A stretch of 64,000 nt of DNA from Styela clava (taxonomy: Eukaryota): contig NC_135257.1 of NCBI RefSeq assembly GCF_964204865.1, positions 9,424,001 to 9,488,000 of the forward strand, in the 5' to 3' direction. The notes under the pieces were generated by a model. The model searched no databases. It was not told the origin of the DNA and saw only the letters and a program-made list of their open reading frames with translations. Shown here one piece after another: positions 18,301 through 61,245 of this stretch (position 1 is its first letter; each line of letters begins with the position of its first letter). Position numbers and translations under genes: made by a program.

Positions 18301-20989
18301 ATCATTCAACAACAGCCATATACTCTCATTTGGAAAAAAAAAATTATAATGTGTATATGATTACGAAATATTTCATTTCCAAGTAATTCATGATTTCAAG
18401 ATTTTGAGACATGGTCATGCCTGTTTGGTTAGAGTTATTCTGAGAAACATGGCTACATTGAAAATTACCAAATTAAAAAACGGCTCAAGATATTTAAATG
18501 CAGGACATGCGGTAATTAGCAAAACAATCGGAGCACGAAGCCGGCGACCACTGTCGTTTTAGGGCAAATTGGTAAAATCTATCCCCCAAAAATAGCCAAC
18601 ACTTCTTTTTCAGATATATATGAATACAACACTTGTTTTTATTTATACATTACCGGTTAACCGCAAACGGTCTTGTTAGCTATCATACACACGATTGTAT
18701 CCGATTTTCATTTTATTCATTTACATAAATTACATTTAAAATTAAACAAAACTTAGTTGAATTAAAATTAAACTAACTTGTAAGATTGAGGAAATTGTAA
18801 ACGGCATCCGTCTGTTTGCGTTTAAATATAACAAATAAAAACTGCCATCATATAGTCACTTCCCACGCATGTCAAAGTTAAATTTTTAGACAGGGGTGAA
18901 TAATAATCGTGTATGTACCATGACACATTTGCAACGATCGGTATTCTAGGTATTATGAGTATTCGAGTATGAAAAGTTTTTGAACTATAGTTGCACTTGG
19001 AATTAGAACTTAAACGTGAAATCTATTTTCGCTCAGATTGCGGTTTTAGCTCTAAAAAATGATCCGTATTTAAAACACGTTAGACAGTGCTTTTGAAGTG
19101 CTTTCCCGGGGACATAAAATGATATTATCGCGAAAAAAGAACCGTGGAAAGTCGAAGCATAAACTTTGTCCCGCAAAAATCCTCAATCATCTATCAGCTT
19201 TTGCAGCTAAATACGAACTGTTAAAAGGACTATGTTATTAAATTTGACAATTCCTGTGATACATATCGAAAAAGTAATTTACTCGAAAAAGCAAATAAAT
19301 TTCTGTTTTTTTTTTGTCTTGGCCATTACTCTTCCCTTCGGGATCATTTCAACGGTTACGGGGCGAAATTTTTTATCGTTATTTCCCCGGTAATAGAGGC
19401 AATCAAAGTGACCCTCAAGAACCACAATGCCTCGGGCGGCAGTAAAACACGATAAATTAAGTTTCAAGTACGGAGTTGTTTTCCAAACTATAGGTGTTTT
19501 TATGTACGCCTTTTAATATCAGGTAAAGAGCTATTTAAAAGCGATCACGTCACGAACCTATGCTTCCAAGTGCAAAAGTATGATACTAGTAACAAATCAC
19601 ACAAAATAACAAAAACACAAATCGCCGCAAGGGAACACTTAACGATGTCGAAAACTTTAAGATTTAGGATAACTGTATAATTATGCAAAGCCAGTCCCAA
19701 TCACTACTGATTGCCACAGCATAAATTCAGGTCTTTCCCAAATTGGATTCAGCTTGCTAAAAACTGCTGTGTGGTGCAGCAAATAATATAGCATCGATGC
19801 AAAGCATGGCGCTTCACTTATAGTTCTGACTTGACAAAGATTAATAAACAATAAAAATCCAATTAATGTCAGGAGGCCACAAATAATCAGTCATTGATAA
19901 AATATATCAAAATATCATATTGCCCGTGTGGCAAATTTAAAGCATAGCATTTTTGGAGCCTCTTCTCTTTTTCCTTCTTTACAACAAAAAGTTAGGGTTA
20001 GTAAACCCAGTGTTCAACATCCATAATACAAAATGTTGATGATTATTAAAAACTTGACAAATGACACATTTAAAATCATAATAACAACACCATCCTTTGC
20101 TAAAATAGAGTTCTTTTTAAAAATAAGGCAGGCATCCTCTAAATTGAATTTATTTGATTTATCAGTATATAAAAAATATGAAAACAAACCTGCATGACAG
20201 AACTTTGGCTGAGACATAACTGTGATGTGTAGATGAAATCAAGAACTTTTGCAAAGCCGACACTATTGACAATCATCGGAATTTCAATGACATCTTTCTT
20301 CACTTGTTTGTTAGGGTTCAGAAACAGATCCCTAAAAACGTATAAAGATTAACCCATTGTGCTAAGAATAAATTGAGGTGATAAAATATATATAAATATA
20401 TGTACTTCAATTACTTGATAGTAAGCACTTGGACACATCAGGTTCGGCTTGATTTACTGACCCCAAATTCATATAGTCTTCCACGAAAATGAAAACTATA
20501 TTCCCATATCATTAGACACTATAATTTTAAATACATAAATATTAAGTACCTGAAATAACCCATTGCAGATGCCAGTACATTTGTATGAGCTTTGAACAAA
20601 TGGCCTTGTACTCGAACTGTGATATCGCATAATTGACCCTGAAATATTAAAATATTAAAAGACTCAATGTGAAATAAATTATACCCGGTGTATTGAAGTC
20701 AGCAATTATCACAGAAAATCAACACCAATCAAGTGCTTAGGTCGGGTTAGGTTACTGTCCCGCCTTGTCCTGATTTATGATAGATAAACAGAATTAAAGA
20801 AAACCAGTAGGAAATTAATTAATGTTGGAGCAACGAGAAGAGCAATGACTAAACTCTGAAACTATGCAATAAAAAAATTATATACAAAACATATATTAAA
20901 TAAATCACCTGCAGCCTTTGTTCATTTAATCCCATTAACAAACTTGAAGGATGCTCAACTGATTCACAAACGTACATTCGGGTTGCCAT
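355..20989 (-). CDS. BTB/POZ-domain transcriptional regulator (ZBTB/NACC-like), multi-exon, 3' end beyond the left edge of the window
   Basis: Phase-consistent GT-AG exons 20989-20909, 20638-20550, 20331-20190, 3192-3043, 2501-2358, 1729-1540, 1111-952, 456-355. They splice to MATRMYVCESVEHPSSLLMGLNEQRLQ|GQLCDITVRVQGHLFKAHTNVLASAMGYFR|DLFLNP...GFAKVLDFIYTSQLCLSQSSVMQ|VLCSACYLQIPYVVDKCQEFI, a complete N-terminal BTB domain, followed by a low-complexity S/P/N linker containing an IKQE SUMO-type motif. The last visible exon ends KPKKEY(R/S), compatible with a C2H2 finger following, but that part is not in the window. Confidence 0.9.
638..772. mobile_element. Short MITE/foldback element in a BTB-gene intron
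   Basis: Imperfect inverted arms of about 43 bp: GGTCTCGTATAATTTCGCATCTCAAGTACTTCTAGTGGGCGTA ... TACGCCCATTAGGAGTACTTGAGGTTCGAAACTGCACAAGACC. Confidence 0.6.
1281..1480 (+). mobile_element. Possible degenerate tRNA-derived SINE fragment
   Basis: A-box-like head GAAGCGTGGTGTCGTAATGGTTGAAGCG resembles the SINE head at 54339; the B-box is degenerate and the boundaries are approximate. Confidence 0.3.
5300..19600. promoter_or_regulatory. CpG-retaining, non-coding, TF-motif-rich block inside the 17-kb BTB intron (putative enhancer region)
   Basis: CG dinucleotides are visibly frequent compared with the CpG-poor flanks (1-5000 and 19700-21300). No credible ORF and few recognisable transposons. 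Clusters of Sox, TCF, COE/EBF-like, CSL-like and TAATTA motifs. Function is inferred. Confidence 0.5.
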
Positions 20990-21579
20990 TTTTGTTTCCT
21001 TCTCAATCTTTCCCACTGCGAATTGTAGAAATATAAAGAATGCAGACTATTCAATCAACTTCTTTGTTGGTATGCACAAATATTTGCTCAGAGGTTCCAA
21101 CTATCACGTATCATGCATGTCTTTATACTGATATAAGCTATCTACACACCAATTTTTTTTATCAAATTATCTAAATATTAATGCTTTTGGTATTGGTTAC
21201 TCATAAACAGCAATGAAACCTTAATACAGTAATATGTACAAATGTTTAAAATTCTTCTGTTATTTCAGTATTTATCATTTTAAACGCTATCTATCTATGA
21301 TGGGGTCTTCAAAAAGTTATTAGTTATTGTCCCTTCATACTGAAAATATCTTTATAACGCTGTATTTTAGGAGCATTGTATCTATTGTCATCACGGATGC
21401 ACAATCATTCAACTTTAAATACCAGAACACATCCCCTAAAATATTGTTATAGCCTAATTCCCGAGTTAGGAAGAAGTCAAATCTTAGAAAACTTCTATTT
21501 CTGTAATGGATGTACGATGTACCCAAACCTCTGCATGTACACAACATTCTCTAAATTGTCATAGGCCTACCCATAATCA

Positions 21580-23300
21580 TCCCGTTATCGATCGTGTTGT
21601 CATTTCACATCTATTACCCTACTTAGCTCGGAGCTGAACGTTCGCACGGCCAACGCGATAACGAACGCGCACCCTGCTCGTTTCACCCTGCGCGTAAATT
21701 TAGGCTCAGGCGGTCTCGTCTGGTCGAGGATTATTGAGATTTGCAGATCTAACACGGGTCAGTAAACCCAAACGTAAACATGTAGTATTCTAGCTCTGTA
21801 TCGCCGCTTTCGGTAATATTTTCATCGGCATTGACTATGGCCGTCCGCAGTCAGCACAAAGCATTGACAAAAGCTAATGAACATTTCAAATATGACGATT
21901 CAACAATTGGCTAGTTTCACAAAAACTAAAATAGAACAATACCCAGATATCTCTCCACTGCGTAGGTACCGTAATTGTGTACCATGGCTATGCATGTGTT
22001 ACCCGGTTGACAAAAATAAACCCATACCTTCCTTAGTCGCTGATTTGGACAAATGATTATTTGAAATAAATTCATATGTAATTATATTTTCGGGACCTAA
22101 TATATTGCAATTTGAAGGCACATGTTATCAGAATCATTCTCAGTAAGAACCATTATGTCTTGTAATCAAAAATATGCCGATAAAAGGTGAATTCAAATCG
22201 TTGAACCATTGGCATACCGGTAACGAATTCATGATAAAAATTTGCGATAAAAGATTTCCGAAGCAATTGCCATTTGTGCTACCCGAAGCCAGTATTACTT
22301 TAATTTGATCCTGAACCTATTTCAAAATAAATATATCTGCAGCAAATAACATGGCAAGTTTTTCTCATTTATGAATTCCCGGTGACACTTTCAAAAAAAT
22401 TGTTATGCTGTTTTGTGAAGGGGAAGATGATATTACCAAGTTTAAAAAGTTAAAATATGCCTTGACAATACTACAATGGATGTTTCTTCGATCATCTAAG
22501 CATGGGTGTAAACATTGGCCCGTTTCGATTTGGGTTCTATTTGACAGTTTTTGGTTATGTTTTCAAAATTTAGGCATATATCGAACGACCTGAAAAAGCT
22601 TATAGCAACAAATATCTGAGATTACAATCAATGCCGTTACGTATATATGTGCTGCTCCAACTTGCATTAGTCAAAGATCCAATTACATTACATTAACATA
22701 TCAATGCCATTGAACAGTGGTGGTAATTGATTTTTGGGGTTATGTCTCTCGTCTTTTTGAATCAGTCTAGACATGAAAAACTATATTCATGATTTTTCTC
22801 ATCGGTGCGAATAAAAGGTTTCGAATGCCTTTTTTATTAATTTTTTTGAGTATTCTACATTGAAAATGTGAAACAATTAAATGTTAATTTGAATGCATTA
22901 GATTTTGAATAGTGGAATTTTATTTTTTTATTTTTATTTTAAGAAAATCGAGCCGTCGAGTATGTTATCATCCATGCGGAATCTCGCTCTAACTCTAACA
23001 TGTGTATTTTCCCATTATACCTGATGTAGTGTATTGTAGTTAAATTTACTGATTTTAATTAATAGCTGGACTTCGAAAAATGCTTTTCATATCATTTCTA
23101 CTCCATGTACTTAGATTCTACAATTGAAACGCGATAATTAGACAGGAGTATCGGGCGTCATGAAAACTATGAAAGGAAATGCATTGATATTCAGTGATAC
23201 AGGTAGGTCTGCGTGTTGATTGGGAACGCGGACAGGTAGGAGGAATTATTTTAGCTGATACCGGTAGGCCTAGTAGTCGGGAACAGTACAGTCATTACAC
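21580..23300. promoter_or_regulatory. Probable divergent promoter region for the BTB gene (-) and LRRC57/TGS1 (+)
   Basis: Lies between head-to-head start codons (20989 on -, 23672 on +). CpG-rich patches at about 21580-21860 and 23130-23290; reverse CCAAT box (TGATTGG) at about 23217-23223. Confidence 0.45.
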
Positions 23301-23605: not shown

Positions 23606-24391
<786 letters not shown>

Positions 24392-25300
24392 AAAAGATGA
24401 AATGCAATATCATAGTCTCTATATGACTGTTCATTGATTCAGATTATGGATTGAGCAATTGAGTCTTGTAGGAGGCTGTTGTTTATATAAAATTTATCAT
24501 TCATTTGTTATCAAGTCAGAATGTTTATTATCTCATGTTAATTTATGTAGAATGTTTTTAAGTATTAATAATTTAATATAATCAATCATTTAATTTACGA
24601 ATGTTACCGAACCCCGATTCAAAACTGAAAATAAAATTTATATAGAGAATCGATTTGATGAAATATGAAACTAACAAATTCGAATTTCTACAAGATTAAA
24701 ATGAGAGGATGACAAAACATGAAATTATCTTCAATTTCTCCTTTAGTATCTATTCAATAATGAGACAGCTCGTGCATGGAGGATTTTTGGATTCCTCTCT
24801 GTTGCGGGATGATTCATGCATGTAACTGACTTACTCTACTTTCAAAGTTCGTACATAGCAACAATTACCTGATAAGTATCTCTATATATTATGTCCAATT
24901 TAGAATCGTAACTAGCTGAGTTTTTTAGGTGACCTGGAATACTGCAAAGATTAAACTTTATATGATGGCTCTGTCAACAAGGACTGCAAACTTATTTTTA
25001 TTATTTTGTCATATTTTTGTGCTCTATAGAGATTTATATTCTCTCATGTAACAATTTGCTGCTGAAATAATCCTACAATTATTGAATTGATTTACATAAT
25101 ACATTTAAGATAGGATTAATCTGTTGAGTAATTTAAAAATGCCTGTATTTGATCTCAAGGAAAACATTACATATAGTTTGCCATAATTTATAAACTCCCA
25201 ATGCCCATTACATGACAGTGAGAGTAAATTTTTATTGTTGAAAATGCTCCTTTTTAATTTGTTTTAGGTACTTTTGTGTAAGAGTAAATGTGTTGTGTAT

Positions 25301-25322
25301 AATAAATGTTTTTTTTTATCAG
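25301..25322 (+). promoter_or_regulatory. Poly(A) signal directly followed by a splice/trans-splice acceptor (LRRC57-TGS1 junction)
   Basis: AATAAA(25301-25306)-TG-T9-ATCAG(25322), lying between the LRRC57 stop (24391) and the TGS1 ATG (25533). Confidence 0.6.
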
Positions 25323-25532
25323 CTGAAAAGAGTTGAGACTATTTTTGCTAAAATGACAAAAATCATATGTAAGCTTGAAATGGGGTCATATGTGTGAAAG
25401 TATTCAGATAATACCCAGAAATTCCAACAAGGAAGATAGTCAAGCACTTCTTTGTAACAAGAAAAAGGGAGAGGAAGACATAGCTTTAAATAATTTACAA
25501 CTTCGACCGTGGCACTGTCGGAAATATGCAAA

Positions 25533-37025
<11,493 letters not shown>

Positions 37026-37953
37026 CAGATGAAATTGAAACTCTTGTGGATATTTATATGATGATGTATTTTTGCACACGATTTTTGCAAGTCTTGCAAT
37101 GATTTTAAGAACAATCATAGTTACCTTCTTGTTTTACATTGTTCATATCACTATAATGATACATTGCTGGAATTAGTCTTAACCAATATTAATAAAAACA
37201 TAATATGCATTACATAGAGATATGCAGCTATTTTAGATATGCTTTGGTTTGCAAATGGTTGTAAAAATTATGAAATGAAACAGCAAAGTCCCGACGTCTG
37301 TCAATTGTACCATATGCAAGTCCATTTTTATTTGTCATCGTTTCAACTCGCCAAAGGATAAGTAGAACTTGCGTCTTTGATCCATTTGTGCGCCATTTTA
37401 ATTTGAGAGTCTGAGAATAAAATTTTAAATGAAATGAATATAAGAACCATATTTGACTTTCTGCACTTCTCAACACTTGAACACACTGGATACTACTGTA
37501 TTGTACGTCAACACAGCGTTAGAAACTCCCTAAACCGCGCGTGTCATCCGCGTCGACTCCGAAGTATAATCAATTTCTGAATTAAATCTTACTGACGGTT
37601 AGCTTGGCCCCAGTCATTTCATTTAGTTAGTCGAGTCTCTTGTGAGCTTCTATAATTCGTGACTCTGGCCCACGAGCCCCATCCAACGCTGGGTTACTAT
37701 AATGAGTGTATCAATCTCTAATAAAAGTGGGCCAAGAGAAGGTGACATCTGCACTTGATGCATTGGCTACTACATTACTAGCTGAACGAATACGGCACTA
37801 TGCCCTGTAATTTGATTTATGCGCGGGACTTCTCGCTTGCACGCTTAAAGAAATAAAACCAACGCTTACTTTTAAAATGGAACATGCTGCTGATATATTA
37901 GGTGATTACTAGTAGTTGATTTTGTCTTGAGCGTGAAATGACTATTCCTCTTG

Positions 37954-39000
37954 ATGCGTACCAATTGCGCAAGTTTGCGAAGCGATGTCAGTACCAACGA
38001 GTCAGTTGAAAGGACAGCGTGCCAGAATATGCCAGCATCCGATAAATATGGGGACAAAAATGCAACGATTTTCATTGTTAACTTTTCGGAACATATTGAT
38101 TTTGTATATGACTGGCATGCCGAGTATTTGACGATAAAGATAATAGAGTGCATATTTGCGTTACTCTGCTTCGTTTTATTTGTTGCTCAGCTGACATACT
38201 TCGTTTTACAAAAACGTGTTGATGAGAAGAAATGGAAAGAGACTGCTGCACCCAACCATAGAACAAAACTTCGAACGAAAAATGCTATGAACGTTTGTTT
38301 GTTTTTGGCTTGTCTTGCTGCGTGTGGAAGAGGAATCGTGTCTTTTTTACCGGAAGCAACAGATGACCGTACCTGCAATTCTCAAAGAAAAGCAATGATG
38401 TTCTTATTTTATGCTTGTGAAACTTTAACGTATCTTGTGCTTTGGATCAAGCAAAGAACGCTATACTCCGAACCTATATTGAGGCATTTGTCGTCGAAAT
38501 TCATTCGCTTTTGTAGTTGGTTTGTTCTCATAGTAATGATTGCTTGTCTATTCTTGGCAATAATTTTAGTGACCGTATTTCATCATTATGAGGCAACAAT
38601 GCACGGATGTGTTTCGACTCCTAGGATGACTGATGTTGAATATGGATTTGTCATATCGCTTTCTGTTACTTTCCAGGTCGGTCTTGTGTTTCTTTTTGCT
38701 TACCCCCTTATCAAACACCGGAGAGAGACCGAGTTAAATACGATAACAGGAGTAGTGAGGAGGGCTACAATTGCGACTGTTGTATGTGTTGTGAGTGAAG
38801 CAATAAGTGCATTATTTTCAATGTTACATCCTCGCCAAGAAGTTGAAATATTTTCCTTTGTATATTACATTAATGTTTTAATTAATATATTTGGCATATT
38901 ATTTTCTTTTACCGATTGGAGACATAGGCTTTTACCTTTGAGTTTACCAGCAAAAGAAAAAAGATGCGAAATCTATCACGTGAATGATCACAGTGGGTAA
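37954..39000 (+). CDS. Orphan seven-transmembrane (GPCR-like) protein, intronless
   Basis: 348-codon ORF from the first ATG (alternative ATG at 38029) with seven hydrophobic segments. Cys at the top of TM3 (DRTC) and in the second extracellular loop (HGC), basic intracellular loops, N-terminal NES/NAT/NFS sequons. No canonical DRY or NPxxY motif. Confidence 0.85.
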   Translation: MRTNCASLRSDVSTNESVERTACQNMPASDKYGDKNATIFIVNFSEHIDFVYDWHAEYLTIKIIECIFALLCFVLFVAQLTYFVLQKRVDEKKWKETAAPNHRTKLRTKNAMNVCLFLACLAACGRGIVSFLPEATDDRTCNSQRKAMMFLFYACETLTYLVLWIKQRTLYSEPILRHLSSKFIRFCSWFVLIVMIACLFLAIILVTVFHHYEATMHGCVSTPRMTDVEYGFVISLSVTFQVGLVFLFAYPLIKHRRETELNTITGVVRRATIATVVCVVSEAISALFSMLHPRQEVEIFSFVYYINVLINIFGILFSFTDWRHRLLPLSLPAKEKRCEIYHVNDHSG

Positions 39001-48300: not shown

Positions 48301-51204
48301 AATGGAGCAGCGGATGATAATGCGTGTTACCCTATGGTAACAACGACCGCGGTAACATGGTGGCCACCTGCAGTTCCACCCACTAGTCCCCCTATCCAAT
48401 ACGAGTGTTTCTACCCGGACGCGCCATGCAATTGTCTTTATGCGAGTAGTACACATGTACCACCAACGCAACCAAATGGAGGAACCACGACAATGTTCAC
48501 CACAACAACTCACGCACCATGCGAAGGTAAGCTCCACTAATATATATCACTTATATTGCAAAATAACTATAGATTTTTCTTTGCACTCATTAAAAAGTGA
48601 CTTATTAAAAACTTGCCTGTAACTAATAGTTCGCATTTCATGCAATTTAAAAATTTACATATATATGACATAACAATACATTTTGCATGTCGTGAACACG
48701 AAAAGACTGTTATGGCACCATAATAAATTCTATAGGCCTTATGAAGTAATTGTTTGAGAGGGGCAGAGGCCTCACAAATGGTATAGCCTACCTGAGGGCC
48801 GGATTTACCATAATACAAGGTAGACCCAACCTTAGCAGCTTCGACATTCAAATTATTATTCATTTTTAAGTCGATTTCAAATTTTGAAAGCTTGTTTCAG
48901 ATTTAAACCGATTTGAAATTTCATAAAACTGATATTTGTTCAATCGTGGTAATATTTCTTGACATAAATATTTAACTTACTTCAGTTTGTGTAAATTTGA
49001 AAACTTTACTCCTCAACAATAAAAAAGATATAGCAATTCAAGTTAATTGAGCAGTTTTAATGTAATACTGTAATGCCTTCATTTTTAGAAAATAAAAAAA
49101 TGTCGATATATATATAAGTATACCAATTCATTTAAGCAACAATGATTCTAAGATTAATATATTTTCCATTATTTCCGGATTTTTTTTTATCGCAGAATCG
49201 TTCACATTAAAAATGGAACGAAAATTCACCAACAAGGCTTTATTCATCAATAGGCTAATGGACCATGCTCCCCAGCCCCACCTCTCACAACTAGAGACGG
49301 ATATTATACTTCAGGTCTTAATATGACGTAATAATGATTTGTATAGAGCCCTATGACGTGTTCGTTAAAGAGGGCCCCATAAATGACAAAGCCTAGGGCT
49401 TCTTCCCATTGTCTAAACTCGAAATCTGGTCCTGGACTGAACCTGTCGTGAGATAGGTGAGGCGATGAGACAAATCTTTATACGCATATATTCTTAAATT
49501 TTGATTGAAACATTTTTGATAGGTGCTGATTGTGGACCACAGTGTCTAGGGGGAAACGGCTTTTATCGCGATGAAAGTGATTGTAGTTGTTTTTATCAAT
49601 GTAACAACGACGTCAGTGTTCACAGATGCTGTGATGTGAGTCAATAACCGCACTGTTGACTTCTGGTTATTAATATGCCAAGTCAATATATATATTTAAT
49701 ATATAGTTAGGCTTTCGGATCTATAAAATCAGCCCATTATAGTGATTGAACATGAAACTTTTACCTATAACTAAATGAAACGTATAAATTCTTTTTGCTT
49801 TCATTTTCTTGCGTGCAAAAACAATGTTCCTCTTGTATAATTTTCCAAGATAACTTGATTAATATCAAGTCAAGTACTGAAATTGAGAATAAAGGATCAT
49901 ATGACATTTAATCTTTTGCCCACTTCATGTCTCCAGCATGTAAAATACGAAAGATGTTTTCATATGTTTTGGACGTAAGACAAAATATATATATATATAG
50001 TATACACCTCTATATGGCTGCTAATAAAATAAATACCCTGGTGAATAACATGCTCATTTGTCTCGTTGAGACGCTGATCCATACTTAATCAACATTACTT
50101 ACAGCCAGAATTATATTTCGACGAAGAAAATCTTTTATGTGATTGGAAAGATAACGTTTACTGTCCCCTGGACGGCACTTCAACAACAACGTTAGCTGCT
50201 GAAACAACCACAACAGCTGGTGAGTTTTTGAGTAATCATAGGATTTAGCAGTCAGTAAGCGCTGTTCAACTGCCTACATTCATACTGATGACCACCAGTA
50301 TCCGCGGCAGACTTGTGTAGATTTTCAATATCTAATATTGTGCGTATACAGACATTCAGACAAGTAATTCGCTTTGGCATTTGCTGTATAATATGCACGA
50401 TAATGTGAATGCACGTTGCTGCTATGTAAATGTGTGCCAATATCCTATAGAATCATCGTCAAATGTATAGCTGTCTGTTAGCAATGAACTATATTTCTGA
50501 ACTATGCGAGTGATAGGATGCGATATAATTTTATCTCGCAGATGGCAGCTTGTATATATATGTAAGTAGACTCAAAAATTGGTATATATATTTGTATGTA
50601 CGCAAATAGATTTGAAACAAGTTCTAAACTAAATTCGAAATCGCTTATACACTAACCAGACTCACCTCCAGTACCAACGACCCCTCTTAGTACAACAACA
50701 AAAGGCAATATTATCATAAGCACGACTACAGCGGACTCCGCTACTACTACAAAATCCCCGTTAACCCCAACGACCTCAGGCGGAACGGATAAGTTTACGT
50801 GCGACGGGAAGCCTGACGGTGATTATGCTGATCCGAATGATAACACAATATTTCACAAATGCGACCACGGCAATGATAACGTTTTCCATTGTCAAAATGG
50901 TCTCGTGTATGATGGAAATGTCTGCAACTGGCCGTCAGCTATCACGACAACAGAGGGAATTTATGGAAGTCCTGGTCCCACTACTAAAACTACGAACGTC
51001 CCCGAGCATTCCGCACCAAGCACTACTTCTACCACGCCAGCCAATAATGACGAAAATCCTACTTGCGAAGGAAAGGCGAATGGCACAACCTTCCCTGATC
51101 CAAATGACAACACGGTATATCTGCAGTGCGTACACGGAGTGATAATTGTGCGTAACTGTCCTGCAGGTTTAGTGTATGACGGAAATGTTTGTACATGGCC
51201 ATAA
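42362..51204 (+). CDS. Secreted GH18 chitinase (CHIT1/CHIA-like), isoform with last exon 14a (three chitin-binding domains)
   Basis: Exons 42362-42419, 42585-42736, 42851-43006, 43671-43799, 45730-45854, 46024-46153, 46759-46835, 47274-47382, 47473-47583, 47885-47991, 48279-48526, 49523-49635, 50105-50219, 50660-51204, all phase-consistent. Signal peptide [20 protein letters not shown]; motifs [27 protein letters not shown], intact catalytic [38 protein letters not shown]; then Thr-rich linkers and CBM14-type domains. Confidence 0.95.
43271..43552. mobile_element. hAT (Charlie-type) MITE in a chitinase intron
   Basis: TIRs CAGGGATGGGAAAATTA / TAATTGCCCACCCCTG, subterminal GGCCCGCGGGCCGG, decayed 8-bp TSD GGCTAGTC/GATTAGTC. 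Confidence 0.8.
44012..44402 (+). mobile_element. Helentron-associated (HINE/DINE-1-like) non-autonomous element, copy 1
   Basis: 5' TTGGAAACGTGAGTGGAC, (TGT)n tract, 3' end CATATATTTGAGCGTTGCTCTCTTGTT with a short hairpin; homologous to 45095-45353 (inverted) and 62436-63107. Confidence 0.65.
45095..45353 (-). mobile_element. Helentron-associated (HINE/DINE-1-like) element, copy 2
   Basis: On the minus strand: subterminal inverted repeat TGGACACGTAG ... CTACGTGTCCA, then hairpin GAGC-ATA-GCTC and terminal TCTTGTT. Confidence 0.7.
48794..49434. mobile_element. hAT-like MITE (GGGCCGGATTT type) in a chitinase intron
   Basis: Ends GAGGGCCGGATTT ... AAATCTGGTCCTG with subterminal GGGGCCCC; TSD not evident. 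Confidence 0.55.
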
Positions 51205-55298: not shown

Positions 55299-57512
55299 CA
55301 GTGGCGGCGCGTGGTCATTTTGACAACCGGGGCAAGCTACTGCGGGACCAAGTCACCACCTTCTACGGGGACAGGATGAGCGCTGTAAGTTCTCCCATCA
55401 TTTTATGAGTATAAAAACCATTCCATCGGTAACAACGAATCGGCAAAAGCGACAATTTTTAACGATAAGAAAGTGTCTTTAAAACCGGTCCAAGTCAAGG
55501 GATTAATAAATATAGACATAGTTTATTTTGAAACCTCTTTCAAAAGGAAAGGCAATATTTACCCAGATAAATACAATGACATATTAACAGAAACTTCGGG
55601 AAAGCAGACAAAACCTAAAATAAGGTTTAAAACGTTACTATGAAGAAAGGAAAGTTATGCAAAGATAAGGACATGCGTCGCTCACTCATAGATATATATG
55701 CTGCTAGACTTCTACTGCTTGAACATATAGGCAACACGCCGCGGTTTCTTGGAAGCAAAATGCTCAATAACGCGCTGATTAAAGTCATGCATCCCAGAAA
55801 TAACGTCTCTGTGAATGGATAAAACAGCCAAGGAATTTAATCTATCTTGCTTCATTGTGTTTCTGAGATACGCTTTAATACGCTTCAGCGTGCTGAATGT
55901 TCGCTCTGCGTCGGCGGAAGAAATAGGCGTCGTCAAAATGAGGTCCAGAAATTTTGCAGACGCCGCAAAGGTAGTTACTAGTGTGTTATCTATGAGGAAC
56001 CCATAGAGCGCGCAAGTTGATGTGATGTTCAAAAAAGTTTGATTGGTGTATATACATTGCAATTCATTTTCCAATTTACCCACGTTTATCATGGGGTAAA
56101 ATTTGGAGACAGTAGCCAACAAATGGATGGGAAATTGACGTGCAAATTTTGAAAAATTTTTGGGGTTCATCAAAGAGAACGCGGCAAGGTGTTCAGTGCG
56201 CAGACGATCGCCTATTTGATTCACCAGAATGTCACAGCATTCCTTTGCAGACAAAATCAAACGCTGCGTTGTTTGCCCGCGGCGTAAAGAAGCACTCCAT
56301 GTGTCGTCGTATTTTATTGTTTCCCGGATACGAGATACAGCATCGCAAAAGTCTGAAATACACGACTGCACAGACGCTCCATCCATTAGCCTTGACTGCA
56401 ATGCGCCGTATAATACATCCACGTGATAGAATATTGTGGAGAAAAAAGCGAGAAAAAATGAAAACTCACCATCTTCTAGCAGACGCTTTAGACCTGCCGC
56501 CTCCCTCACAGAAAGTTCGTCCCAAACCGGAGAGCTCTGAATGCCATTGGAACCGAGCTCAGACCTAATTTTGGACACGCCCTGCACCACGCGTGATTGG
56601 AAGTTCCAACGTGTTGGTGCACAAGCTGGGAGACGGCGGCTACATATCTGGCGAAGGAGGTCAGAGCGCTTCGGCGAAACGGAAAAAAATGAAGAAAACC
56701 CCGAAACATTTGCAAAAAATATACGGACGAGAGGGTTATCAAGACACATATTTTTAATAACGAGATTAAATTGGTGTGCATAACAATGTAAAAAATGCGC
56801 ATGAGGAAAATCTTCTTTTATATAAACTTGAACACCATGTTTCGACCCACTCATGACTGCCGCGCCGTCATAAGTTTGAGCTATCAATTTTGACTTCGCG
56901 TTGTAAGGCTGTAACACTTCTTTCAGTACAGCCGATATCCCGCAAGACGTGCGATCAACGATTGGTACAAAGCTGTGAAATCTCTCGGTAGGTTTACCAT
57001 CTTTCACAAACCGAAAAATCACAGCCAGTTGGGAAACGCACGTGATGTCAGTTGTCTCGTCAGACTGAATCGAAAGGAACTGGCAATTCTCAATTTCCAG
57101 AGCCAAATGTTGTAAATAAATTTTATACATTGAGTCGAGCAAATCATTTTGGATATCCTTAGATGTCCCTTTCGAAACAGTTGCGGCATCAAGATGATCT
57201 CTCAAACACGTTGTTGTAAGAAACGTCGGCATTGTGTCGTCATAATTTCGGGGCTAGCATGATGATTTAGTAAAAGAAACAGAAAACAAACGAGACAAAC
57301 GCGGCGAGTGGAAGATAAAAGAGAGAATACGATATACAATGAGCAACCGGGGCAAAATCGACGTCGCCCCGTCGACGTTCGGCGAAGGCTTTGCGAGCGA
57401 AAAATGAACCATGTCGGGAGAATATGGCTAGTGTAGACAGTCTGTGCAACCGATATTGAGGTATTTTTCGAATATTTTTTATTATACCGGCCCTATTGAC
57501 GCGCCGCCACTG
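55299..57512 (-). mobile_element. hAT transposon C (ZMYM1/DUF4371, Tip100-like), 2214 bp
   Basis: Perfect 14-bp TIR CAGTGGCGGCGCGT / ACGCGCCGCCACTG; subterminal CAACCGGGGCAA at both ends; encloses the transposase ORF. Confidence 0.9.
55712..57232 (-). CDS. hAT transposase, apparently N-terminally truncated
   Basis: 506-aa ORF with DUF4371-type SKDIQNDLL, catalytic SIQSDETTD, QTYDGAAVMSG, CYAH (CxxH), TRW, and dimerisation domain SSADAERTFSTLKRIKAYLRNTMKQDRLNSLAVLSIH. No N-terminal zinc finger. Confidence 0.9.
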   Translation of the reverse strand: MPTFLTTTCLRDHLDAATVSKGTSKDIQNDLLDSMYKIYLQHLALEIENCQFLSIQSDETTDITCVSQLAVIFRFVKDGKPTERFHSFVPIVDRTSCGISAVLKEVLQPYNAKSKLIAQTYDGAAVMSGSKHGVQVYIKEDFPHAHFLHCYAHQFNLVIKNMCLDNPLVRIFFANVSGFSSFFSVSPKRSDLLRQICSRRLPACAPTRWNFQSRVVQGVSKIRSELGSNGIQSSPVWDELSVREAAGLKRLLEDGEFSFFLAFFSTIFYHVDVLYGALQSRLMDGASVQSCISDFCDAVSRIRETIKYDDTWSASLRRGQTTQRLILSAKECCDILVNQIGDRLRTEHLAAFSLMNPKNFSKFARQFPIHLLATVSKFYPMINVGKLENELQCIYTNQTFLNITSTCALYGFLIDNTLVTTFAASAKFLDLILTTPISSADAERTFSTLKRIKAYLRNTMKQDRLNSLAVLSIHRDVISGMHDFNQRVIEHFASKKPRRVAYMFKQ

Positions 57513-59625: not shown

Positions 59626-61026
59626 CTATCCACTGAAATCTCCATTACTGTAGTTTGACTCTGAAAATAAAGTTGCTTCAATCTGCCGTCCTCCAAACCA
59701 GCGGTTATTTAAACTTTCTACAGCAGTGGCTGTTGATGAACTCAATTCAAATTCAACGAAAATCTTGACAATACACGGTGCATCATCTTCTTCACCTTGT
59801 TTTTCTTTGTAAATAATAACTTTTTTAACCACACCAAACTTTCCACATTCTTCCGTTACCTCCGCTTCTAAATCTTCATCGATTTCTTCCACACTCACCA
59901 TATTGCAAAGTTTCATTATTTTTGATGTCACTGAAGTGTTTTCAACTGGTATTGTTATTACACCAGGCAGTTCCGCCAAGTTTCCTTGGAAATTTTGATG
60001 AGTTATACCGAGAGTGGGAGTAATTACCCCAGGTGGAGGCACAGATGCTACTTGTTGAGGCTGGGTTGGTAATATATTAGGGATCACTACTTTTGGTGGG
60101 GCAACTGTTGGGCGTATTATAGTTCCAGGCAGTGCGGATAGTGGCACTGTGATTGGCAAATTATCGGCAGGGGACTGAACTGCAGGTGTGTCAAGAAGAC
60201 TGGGAACACCCATCAAATTACTGGCTAATGAGTTTCCTTTCAACGTTGGGGGAGGTGGACCAATACCTCTGCCAACTCTAAGATTCTGTCCTCCTAGATC
60301 AAACAAGTTCATTGATGTAATAGCGTCTTTAGCTGACTGTAGGGTCTCATATTCTATGGATCCATATCCTTTATGTTTCCCAGATGTTGGATCTGGAGCA
60401 AGCGTGCATGATGTAATGTTACCAAATGCAGAAAACACAGATTTCAAATCTTCGATTGACAAATCTTCGTGAACAGAAGACACATATACCCTTTTTGAAG
60501 TTTTTGATTCCTCTAAAATTTGGTCAATAATCGGATGACTTTGTGGCATATTTGATGGTCGACCAACTTTAATTGGCCTGCCACCCAACAACATACCAGA
60601 CATCTGTTCCATCGCAAGTTGAGCAGCATCCGGTGTTTCATATTCAATAAATGCGAATCCTTTATGTTTGCCAGTTATTGGATCAAATGACATGTTAATA
60701 GTTTTTATCACTCCAAATTGTCCGAAAGCAGTACGGACGATCTCTTCTCTTAGGTCATAGAATATAGAACCAACATATACTCGACACATTAGTACGAGGG
60801 CTTGTTGTCTCTGTAATTGCATTGCTTGAGTCATTGTGCCATCCTCTCCAGGCTTTGGCAATAGTCCAGCTTCAATTTGTTGCTTTTTCAAAACATGCTT
60901 TACACTTTCCTGCATAGCATATTGCTTAGCTTTCATGAGAGCTCCTTGTTGTTCAGGTGATAACTGTGGAAGTGACTTTTTTGCAGCAATTGCTGAATAC
61001 TGTACAGTTCCAATTCCAGCAGCCAT
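59626..61026 (-). CDS. PUF60: Poly(U)-binding splicing factor PUF60 (half pint), 466 aa, intronless CDS
   Basis: KAKQYAMQESVKHVL and QRQQALVLMCRVYVGSI (RRM1, KHKGFAFIEY), IKVGRPSNMPQ, RRM2 ending AITSMNLFDLGGQNLRVG, Pro-rich linker, and C-terminal UHM (NMVSVEEIDEDLEAEVTEECGKFG...LNNRWFGGR). Confidence 0.97.
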   Translation of the reverse strand: MAAGIGTVQYSAIAAKKSLPQLSPEQQGALMKAKQYAMQESVKHVLKKQQIEAGLLPKPGEDGTMTQAMQLQRQQALVLMCRVYVGSIFYDLREEIVRTAFGQFGVIKTINMSFDPITGKHKGFAFIEYETPDAAQLAMEQMSGMLLGGRPIKVGRPSNMPQSHPIIDQILEESKTSKRVYVSSVHEDLSIEDLKSVFSAFGNITSCTLAPDPTSGKHKGYGSIEYETLQSAKDAITSMNLFDLGGQNLRVGRGIGPPPPTLKGNSLASNLMGVPSLLDTPAVQSPADNLPITVPLSALPGTIIRPTVAPPKVVIPNILPTQPQQVASVPPPGVITPTLGITHQNFQGNLAELPGVITIPVENTSVTSKIMKLCNMVSVEEIDEDLEAEVTEECGKFGVVKKVIIYKEKQGEEDDAPCIVKIFVEFELSSSTATAVESLNNRWFGGRQIEATLFSESNYSNGDFSG

Positions 61027-61245
61027 ATTGACAAAATTTACCTTGATTTTTGAGTAAAATTATATTTCCCAACTATTATTTACTGTTTTGAAGTGCTGAA
61101 GAAAAAATAGAATCAAACAAGTATCTGATTTGATTCCATAAATAACTGTTATAAGCAAATGATAAAATTAATTGCTCACATTTTCAGCCCAAGTTGAATA
61201 GTCTGATCAATGAAATATAAAATAATAAGATTACTCAAGATATAT

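What the first reader, a model, noticed from the sequence alone, without database searches (positions are those of the whole stretch)
24392..25532. LRRC57-TGS1 looks like a spacer-less trans-spliced operon
Seen: same strand, 1.14 kb from stop to start, no CpG-rich promoter-like patch between them, and AATAAA (25301) 16 nt before a strong acceptor (T9-ATCAG, 25322), so the expected poly(A) cleavage site coincides with the acceptor. Known: in Ciona operons the upstream mRNA 3' end abuts the SL trans-splice site of the downstream gene. Inference: TGS1, which trimethylates snRNA caps (and SL RNA caps in nematodes), would itself depend on snRNP-mediated trans-splicing to become an mRNA, a possible feedback loop. 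The SL cap chemistry in this species is unknown to me.
Basis: partly seen in the sequence, partly recalled or inferred. Interest (0 to 1): 0.7.

Follow-up and report, generated by a model that had tools for sequence, protein, structure and literature searches.

The report
Gapless two-gene operon in sea squirt
In a sea squirt, transcript data show the message for one gene (LRRC57) ending on the very base after which a short leader RNA is spliced onto the next gene (TGS1, the RNA-cap methylating enzyme), so both messages are likely cut from one shared transcript, an arrangement already known from the sea squirt Ciona.

Summary
Confirmed, with transcript support. LRRC57 (intronless CDS 23672-24391) and TGS1 (ATG 25533; 18 exons, 911 aa) lie head to tail in an ascidian. 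In one run, one contig ends at G25322 followed by 26 A, and another starts at 25323 with a 24-nt leader identical to the published Halocynthia spliced leader. This was seen in 1 of 6 runs laid; one other run has a contig across the junction. The leader is absent from the window; its candidate genes form a tandem array on another chromosome. So this is a Ciona-type operon without intercistronic DNA. Two twists: it lies in a stolidobranch-type ascidian, where my searches found no such report, and it carries AATAAA, which 16 of 18 Ciona cases lack, yet poly(A) sits on the AG's G, favouring a splice-made 3' end. The TGS1 feedback loop is untested. The scan had noted this genome's SL array and similar operon ideas elsewhere, not this locus. 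Side find: the leader sits in both LTRs of Ty3/Gypsy elements.

The parts
21500..21900 (.). CpG-rich patch between a divergent BTB gene and LRRC57; candidate shared promoter of the operon (inferred)
   Evidence: 30 CpG in 21501-22000, G+C 0.40-0.48; the divergent gene's contig in X4 reaches 21449. No start site mapped.
23624..23646 (+). Candidate splice acceptor 25 nt before the LRRC57 ATG (cis or trans; unproven)
   Evidence: Seen in the sequence; no leader or joint was seen here.
23672..24391 (+). LRRC57 coding sequence, 239 aa, no intron; first cistron
   Evidence: Best named hits are tunicate LRRC57-like proteins at 61-64%; LRR_8 E 1e-27; next best match in the genome 37%; contigs cover it without a joint.
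24392..25322 (+). LRRC57 3' UTR, 931 nt, filling the whole space up to the acceptor
   Evidence: X2 contig 23693-25322 plus 26 A; X3 and X4 contigs end at 25317, X1 at 25289, X6 at 25222, X9 runs through.
25301..25306 (+). AATAAA poly(A) signal, overlapping the only TnAy branch-like A (25302) within 15-40 nt of the acceptor (branch use predicted)
   Evidence: Intact in X2: all 13 substitutions and 6 gap letters of that contig are listed at other places.
25309..25322 (+). T9 tract and CAG: trans-splice acceptor whose final G is also the poly(A) addition site
   Evidence: Loose ends at 25321 (leader, before) and 25322 (poly(A), behind) in run X2.
25323..25532 (+). TGS1 5' UTR, 210 nt, joined to the 24-nt spliced leader; five upstream ATGs (25353, 25367, 25380, 25390, 25526)
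   Evidence: X2 contig 25321-25436 with leader; uORFs of 14, 1, 5, 76 and 13 codons; single copy in the genome.
25533..37025 (+). TGS1 coding region, 18 exons, 911 aa, intact methyltransferase motifs; second cistron
   Evidence: 8 introns from transcript joints and the ninth from a loose end; exons 11-18 are my prediction; all GT-AG, no internal stop; PF09445 over cut-off on three exons.

Best explanation
LRRC57 mRNA carries its poly(A) on G25322 and TGS1 mRNA carries the spliced leader at 25323, so the two are likely cut from one dicistronic pre-mRNA by spliced-leader trans-splicing, which likely also makes the LRRC57 3' end. Steps: (1) inferred: one promoter, probably the CpG-rich patch near 21500-21900, drives transcription through both genes. 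(2) shown in one run: the 24-nt leader is joined at 25323; inferred: it comes from the SL RNA gene array on contig C8. (3) inferred: the second splicing step frees the upstream RNA ending in the AG, branched to the SL intron probably at A25302. (4) inferred: after debranching, AAUAAA 16 nt upstream recruits the poly(A) machinery, which adds the tail to the ready-made end (shown: the tail follows the G, not the CA one base earlier). One transcript could then give both mRNAs. About 0.9 for the operon architecture, about 0.6 for the splice-made 3' end.
For:: run X2 has a contig 23693-25322 with 26 A behind it (the genome continues CTGAAAAG, not an A run) and a contig 25321-25436 with the leader before it. 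The leader equals the Halocynthia roretzi SL row in a supplement of PMC3795323. It has no match in the window at up to 3 mismatches. The leader-exon junction has no match in the genome at up to 1 mismatch, and the junction region is single copy, so there is no retrocopy. Candidate SL genes: 94 of the first 100 listed leader+GT copies lie on C8; the unit has a TATA box, the leader, a GTAAG donor and an Sm-like site. The 8 visible letters beyond the leader continue a reverse complement of 25410-25420, a fold-back that marks the leader's first base as the molecule's end; one X9 contig covers 23409-25619 and goes on spliced, so reads cross the junction. Ciona operons show exactly this geometry in 19 of 19 mapped cases and 41 of 55 cDNAs (PMC1488885 section 14), and 60% have a single-exon first gene (PMC2760879 section 10).
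Against: Leader and poly(A) were each seen in only 1 of 6 runs laid (one sample, one study), as assembled contigs, not raw reads; the loose-end table was cut, so X1 and X9 were not seen in full. The runs are only guessed to be RNA (their GT-AG joints argue for it). A contig across two genes shows no single transcript. No start site was mapped. AATAAA at the usual distance plus a U-rich stretch at 25340-25347 fit ordinary cleavage as well. The candidate SL RNA folds only weakly better than shuffles (z -1.61, 15 of 200) and has no Rfam match. Branching at A25302 and debranching were not observed.
Confidence: 0.85

Rival explanations
1. Same operon, but the LRRC57 end is cut by the ordinary cleavage and polyadenylation machinery using AATAAA 25301. 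Each transcript then gives either LRRC57 or TGS1, and the two machineries compete because the hexamer overlaps the predicted branch site, as proposed for C. elegans SL1-type operons.
For: Canonical hexamer 16 nt upstream and a U-rich stretch 18-25 nt downstream. Hexamer intact in X2. PMC1488885 section 17 says the three characterised SL1-type operons have AATAAA and that the outcomes may be mutually exclusive.
Against: The tail follows G25322, the bond that splicing cuts, not the CA at 25320-21 that cleavage usually prefers (recalled preference). 16 of 18 Ciona junctions reach the same end without AATAAA. X1's loose end suggests an allele lacking the U-rich stretch (one contig end).
Confidence: 0.3
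2. TGS1 has its own promoter inside the LRRC57 3' UTR, makes a short outron and is trans-spliced as a monocistronic gene; the LRRC57 poly(A) site only coincides with the acceptor.
For: Many ascidian genes are trans-spliced without being in operons (PMC1488885, passages). No start site could be mapped here.
Against: Needs two independent events on one bond. No CpG in 25001-25500. Contigs are continuous across the interval.
Confidence: 0.07
3. The leader or the tail in X2 is an assembly or library artefact, for example a chimera with a transposon that carries the leader.
For: One run only; 326 exact leader copies lie in the genome, many in transposons; the contig has extra letters beyond the leader.
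Against: The join falls exactly on the predicted AG. The visible extra letters are a fold-back of the same UTR and are not found before any genomic leader copy. No genomic leader-TGS1 junction exists.
Confidence: 0.04
4. The arrangement is a feedback circuit: TGS1 trimethylates the SL RNA cap, and the supply of capped SL snRNP sets how much TGS1 mRNA is released from the operon.
For: TGS1 has intact motifs and no second full-length match was seen in the genome. The candidate SL RNA has an Sm-like site. Sm binding is thought to license Tgs1 hypermethylation, and C. elegans SL RNAs are TMG-capped (PMC2200864 passages), as is the Oikopleura leader (PMC6883708 passages).
Against: About a fifth of Ciona genes are in operons and at least 58% are trans-spliced, so TGS1 being one needs no special reason. 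Cap chemistry in this species is untested. Conservation of the pairing could not be checked. The loop would be positive, not homeostatic.
Confidence: 0.12

Closest known systems
Ciona intestinalis SL-resolved operons without intercistronic DNA (Satou 2006, PMC1488885, sections 14 and 17 read; Satou 2008, PMC2760879, section 10 read)
   Same: Poly(A) on the G of the acceptor AG, leader on the next base, two genes, coding-intronless first gene, no obvious functional link.
   Different: The leader is the 24-nt Halocynthia/Botryllus/Styela type, not Ciona's 16-nt one. AATAAA is present, which 16 of 18 Ciona cases lack.
C. elegans SL1-type operons (as described in PMC1488885 section 17; the original paper was not held)
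   Same: No intercistronic DNA, general-purpose leader, AATAAA in the upstream cistron.
   Different: A minor class in a nematode that resolves most operons with SL2; here one leader type was seen.
Oikopleura dioica operons (PMC1488885 and PMC6883708, passages)
   Same: Tunicate; one SL for operon and single genes; TMG-capped leader there.
   Different: 23-30 nt spacers and no AATAAA in Oikopleura; zero spacer and AATAAA here.

Membership tests
Ciona-type operon without intercistronic DNA | Same-strand neighbours whose mRNA ends abut | tested here: met
   Poly(A) behind 25322 and leader before 25323 in run X2, 1 of 6 runs.
Ciona-type operon without intercistronic DNA | Poly(A) added on the G of the acceptor AG | tested here: met
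   X2 contig matches through G25322, then 26 A; one contig.
Ciona-type operon without intercistronic DNA | Downstream gene carries a spliced leader encoded elsewhere | tested here: met
   Leader equals a published ascidian SL, absent from the window, arrayed with donor sites on C8 while the operon is on C9.
Ciona-type operon without intercistronic DNA | Unresolved dicistronic precursor exists | tested here: inconclusive
   One X9 contig bridges the junction, but a contig is not a single molecule.
Ciona-type operon without intercistronic DNA | One promoter, none for the downstream gene | not testable with these tools
   Only indirect: no CpG patch in the interval. Contigs cannot show starts.
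Ciona-type operon without intercistronic DNA | Usually no AATAAA within 40 nt of the junction (typical, 16 of 18; not defining) | tested here: not met
   AATAAA at 25301-25306; matches the Ciona minority and the SL1-type operons.
TGS1 cap guanine-N2 methyltransferase | C-terminal PF09445 domain with SAM-binding and SPPWGG motifs in an open frame | tested here: met
   Three exons over the Pfam cut-off; motifs at residues 697 and 759 of 911. Activity not tested.
LRRC57 | About 238-aa LRR protein, full-length match to LRRC57 | tested here: met
   378 hits at E<=1e-40; named top hits are LRRC57(-like).
SL RNA gene (C8 array) | Leader, GT donor, Sm site, stem-loops, multicopy | tested here: inconclusive
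   Leader, GTAAG donor, Sm-like site, TATA box and tandem copies seen; fold z -1.61; no Rfam match; expression not tested.
SL RNA gene (C8 array) | Trimethylguanosine cap on the SL RNA | not testable with these tools
   Known for Oikopleura and C. elegans; no statement for ascidians seen in the passages read.

The most novel reading that the evidence does not exclude
The junction is a one-bond switch: the poly(A) signal and the branch site share the same bases, so polyadenylation factors and the SL spliceosome contend for each transcript, and because TGS1 makes the trimethyl cap of the SL snRNP, TGS1 activity sets its own mRNA output. That would be a self-reinforcing loop in trans-splicing, and the zero-spacer design would be shared by both main ascidian lineages.
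Probability: 0.12. Interest if true: 0.78.

Novelty: new member of a known kind. Interest (0 to 1): 0.45.

Why it matters
The architecture is known: Ciona has about 1310 candidate operons. Two things add value. First, the leader type places this animal with Halocynthia, Botryllus and Styela, and my searches listed no paper reporting gapless operons there, so the design may be old within ascidians. Second, how the upstream 3' end is made was left open in PMC1488885. This junction has both a canonical AATAAA and a tail on the AG's G, so two point mutations in one reporter would separate splice-made from cleavage-made ends and show whether one transcript can yield both mRNAs. The TGS1 link gives a testable but unsupported regulatory idea.

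Tried and rejected
No RNA holder listed on record: all 9 candidate RNA runs are guesses and are kept as contigs; 6 of 9 were laid and no DNA run was laid. Contig depths were not used to rank genes. Upstream poly(A) at AATAAA 24630: rejected, A>G in all 6 runs and contigs run through. Cis exon spliced to 25323: no joint. Genomic or retrocopy source of the leader junction: none. Motif enrichment: none genome-wide (1038 against 996). The loose end before 23409 in X2, X3, X4 and X9 is not an upstream exon: no acceptor there, no match in the window, and it matches a repeat with 539 copies, so it is likely an insertion allele. No leader was seen at the LRRC57 acceptor candidate 23646; absence in contigs proves nothing. 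Rfam: 0 matches in L030, L025 and the window. Conservation of the gene pair in other tunicates: no relative genome available; TGS1/LRRC57 names not found in 2 supplementary files of PMC1488885, and file 2 was not searchable. Papers not held: PMC312621, PMC83895, PMC2860165. ANISEED papers and a tunicate review mention operons only for Ciona or as browser tracks (passages). A search for TGS1 with spliced leader, trans-splicing and operon listed 2 papers; the one read in passages does not describe autoregulation. One search used mis-set exon ends and was redone.

Full report
Setting. The window is G000:C9:9424001-9488000 of a 376.8-Mb genome. The ORF 23672-24391 is LRRC57; its best named relatives are tunicate proteins at 61-64% identity. 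The downstream gene is TGS1: 18 exons from ATG 25533 to 37025 give 911 residues, all introns GT-AG, no internal stop. Eight introns come from transcript joints and the ninth from a loose end; exons 11-18 are my prediction. PF09445 passes its cut-off on three exons. In the genome the two best of 6 PF09445 matches are this gene; the other four cover only profile positions 2-60. The leader type (below) points to a stolidobranch ascidian; earlier scan notes name Styela clava, which I did not test.

Observation. The coordinates hold: AATAAA 25301-25306, T9 25309-25317, AG 25321-25322, no CpG in 25001-25500 against 30 in 21501-22000. The motif by itself is not special: 1038 genomic matches against 996 for the reversed control, and 7 of 195 T-rich YAG sites in the window have an upstream AATAAA.

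Transcript evidence. No holder is on record as RNA; 9 runs are guessed RNA, all as contigs. I laid 6 of them (X1, X2, X9, X4; X2, X4, X3, X6). Their contigs skip the TGS1 introns at GT-AG ends. In X2 one contig covers 23693-25322 and continues with 26 A, where the genome continues CTGAAAAG. All 13 substitutions of that contig are listed at other places, so G25322 and the AATAAA are matched. A second X2 contig covers 25321-25436 and is preceded by 49 loose letters, of which the last 22, with the shared AG, form a 24-nt leader. The other runs show neither feature: LRRC57 contigs end at 25317 (X3, X4), 25289 (X1) and 25222 (X6); TGS1 contigs align from 25350 (X1, X4), 25355 (X3) and 25463 (X6), X1 with a loose end that resembles 25326-25336 behind an adapter-like remnant (adapter identity recalled). 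One X9 contig runs 23409-25619 through the junction and on into spliced exons. The loose-end table was cut. Short leader and tail tips are easily lost in assembly (my inference). No joint leads into 25323 from upstream.

The leader. It is identical to the Halocynthia roretzi row and matches Botryllus, Boltenia and Styela plicata rows in supplements of PMC3795323 (passages and supplement rows). It has no match in the window. The genome holds 326 exact copies; 122 copies of its last 20 bases are followed by GT(A/C/T), and 94 of the first 100 listed lie on C8. The 1634-bp unit there has a TATA box 32 nt upstream, the leader, a GTAAG donor and an Sm-like site; folding support is weak (z -1.61) and Rfam has no match. 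The 8 visible letters beyond the leader, with its first three bases, are the reverse complement of 25410-25420 and do not precede any genomic copy: a fold-back artefact, which implies that the molecule ended at the leader's first base. No genomic leader-TGS1 junction or second copy of the region exists.

How it likely works. One pre-mRNA spans both genes (inferred; the promoter is probably the CpG patch shared with a divergent BTB gene). The SL spliceosome uses T9-ATCAG and joins the leader to 25323 (shown once). The upstream piece ends in AG and is tailed on the G (shown once). PMC1488885 (sections 14 and 17) found this geometry in 19 of 19 mapped Ciona operons and argued that splicing itself may make the end, leaving a branched RNA to be debranched, or that the two outcomes exclude each other. 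Here the only TnAy branch-like A within 15-40 nt is 25302, inside the AATAAA. I favour a splice-made end with AAUAAA serving tail addition (0.6) over ordinary cleavage (0.3), because the tail follows the G and not the CA before it. Both readings keep the operon (0.9).

Feedback. The leader is TMG-capped in Oikopleura and C. elegans (passages of PMC6883708 and PMC2200864); I saw no statement for ascidians, and three relevant papers were not held. Since about 20% of Ciona genes are in operons and at least 58% are trans-spliced, TGS1 being among them is unremarkable. I give the loop 0.12.

Novelty. A new member of a known kind. Searches for operons in stolidobranchs (listings, with passages of three papers) showed no such report, but most subscription journals are outside the library. 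Earlier scan notes had found this genome's SL array and leader-bearing LINEs, and operon-like ideas in other genomes; none touched this locus.

Side finding. Among the first 100 listed leader copies, 49 form 25 same-strand neighbour pairs 5.0-7.1 kb apart, with no opposite-strand neighbours within 12 kb. The 2 pairs examined are the two LTRs of Ty3/Gypsy-order elements (717 and 238 bp, over 99% alike). Element RNA is likely trans-spliced and the leader likely became fixed in the repeat. A flatworm paper suggests the same origin for partial leaders in LTR and LINE loci (PMC12582326 passage), while C. elegans Cer1 genomic RNA avoids SL1 (PMC3315495 passages).

Verdict. Interest 0.45.

Noticed in passing
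L031 (G000:C1:14846500-14855500), L032 (G000:C1:23216500-23223800), L006-L015: The full 24-nt spliced leader lies inside both LTRs of at least two Ty3/Gypsy-order retrotransposon families (position 543 of 717 and 90 of 238); 49 of the first 100 listed leader copies form such pairs. One family has forms differing by a 9-nt piece ending in AG after the leader, like two alternative acceptors. A leader fixed in both repeats would keep trans-spliced element RNA fit for strand transfer (hypothesis). Searches listed no tunicate report. Possibly more novel than the finding itself.
   Followed up: partly
L030 and L023-L029 (G000:C8, about 4.23-4.59 Mb): Tandem array of candidate SL RNA genes, 1634-bp unit; the copies sampled at the array's low end have other sequences right after the donor GT, in line with earlier notes on LINE insertions there.
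   Followed up: partly
window 25323-25532: The TGS1 leader is long (210 nt) and holds five upstream ATGs, two of whose frames overlap the main start; translation may be damped.
   Followed up: partly
window 23409: Four of six runs carry a piece of a 539-copy repeat just upstream of this base, absent from the assembly: likely an insertion allele 260 nt before the LRRC57 ATG.
   Followed up: partly
window 20188-21449, minus strand: Spliced BTB/POZ gene divergent from the operon across the CpG patch; contig ends differ between runs (21061, 21143, 21449).
   Followed up: partly
window 59626-61059, minus strand: Intronless RRM protein resembling the splicing factor PUF60 (name recalled; Pfam RRM_1); a candidate first gene of another operon.
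   Followed up: no
window 37942-39000, plus strand: Single long ORF with several hydrophobic segments and no Pfam match, about 0.9 kb after the TGS1 stop; AATAAA at 37191 and CpG-containing DNA between suggest a separate unit rather than a third cistron.
   Followed up: no
window 55712-57253 (minus) and 50656-51204 (plus): A hAT transposase-like ORF and a chitin-binding peritrophin-A exon.
   Followed up: no
window 28141-28144: Two acceptors 3 nt apart are both used in TGS1 intron 5 in run X4.
   Followed up: no
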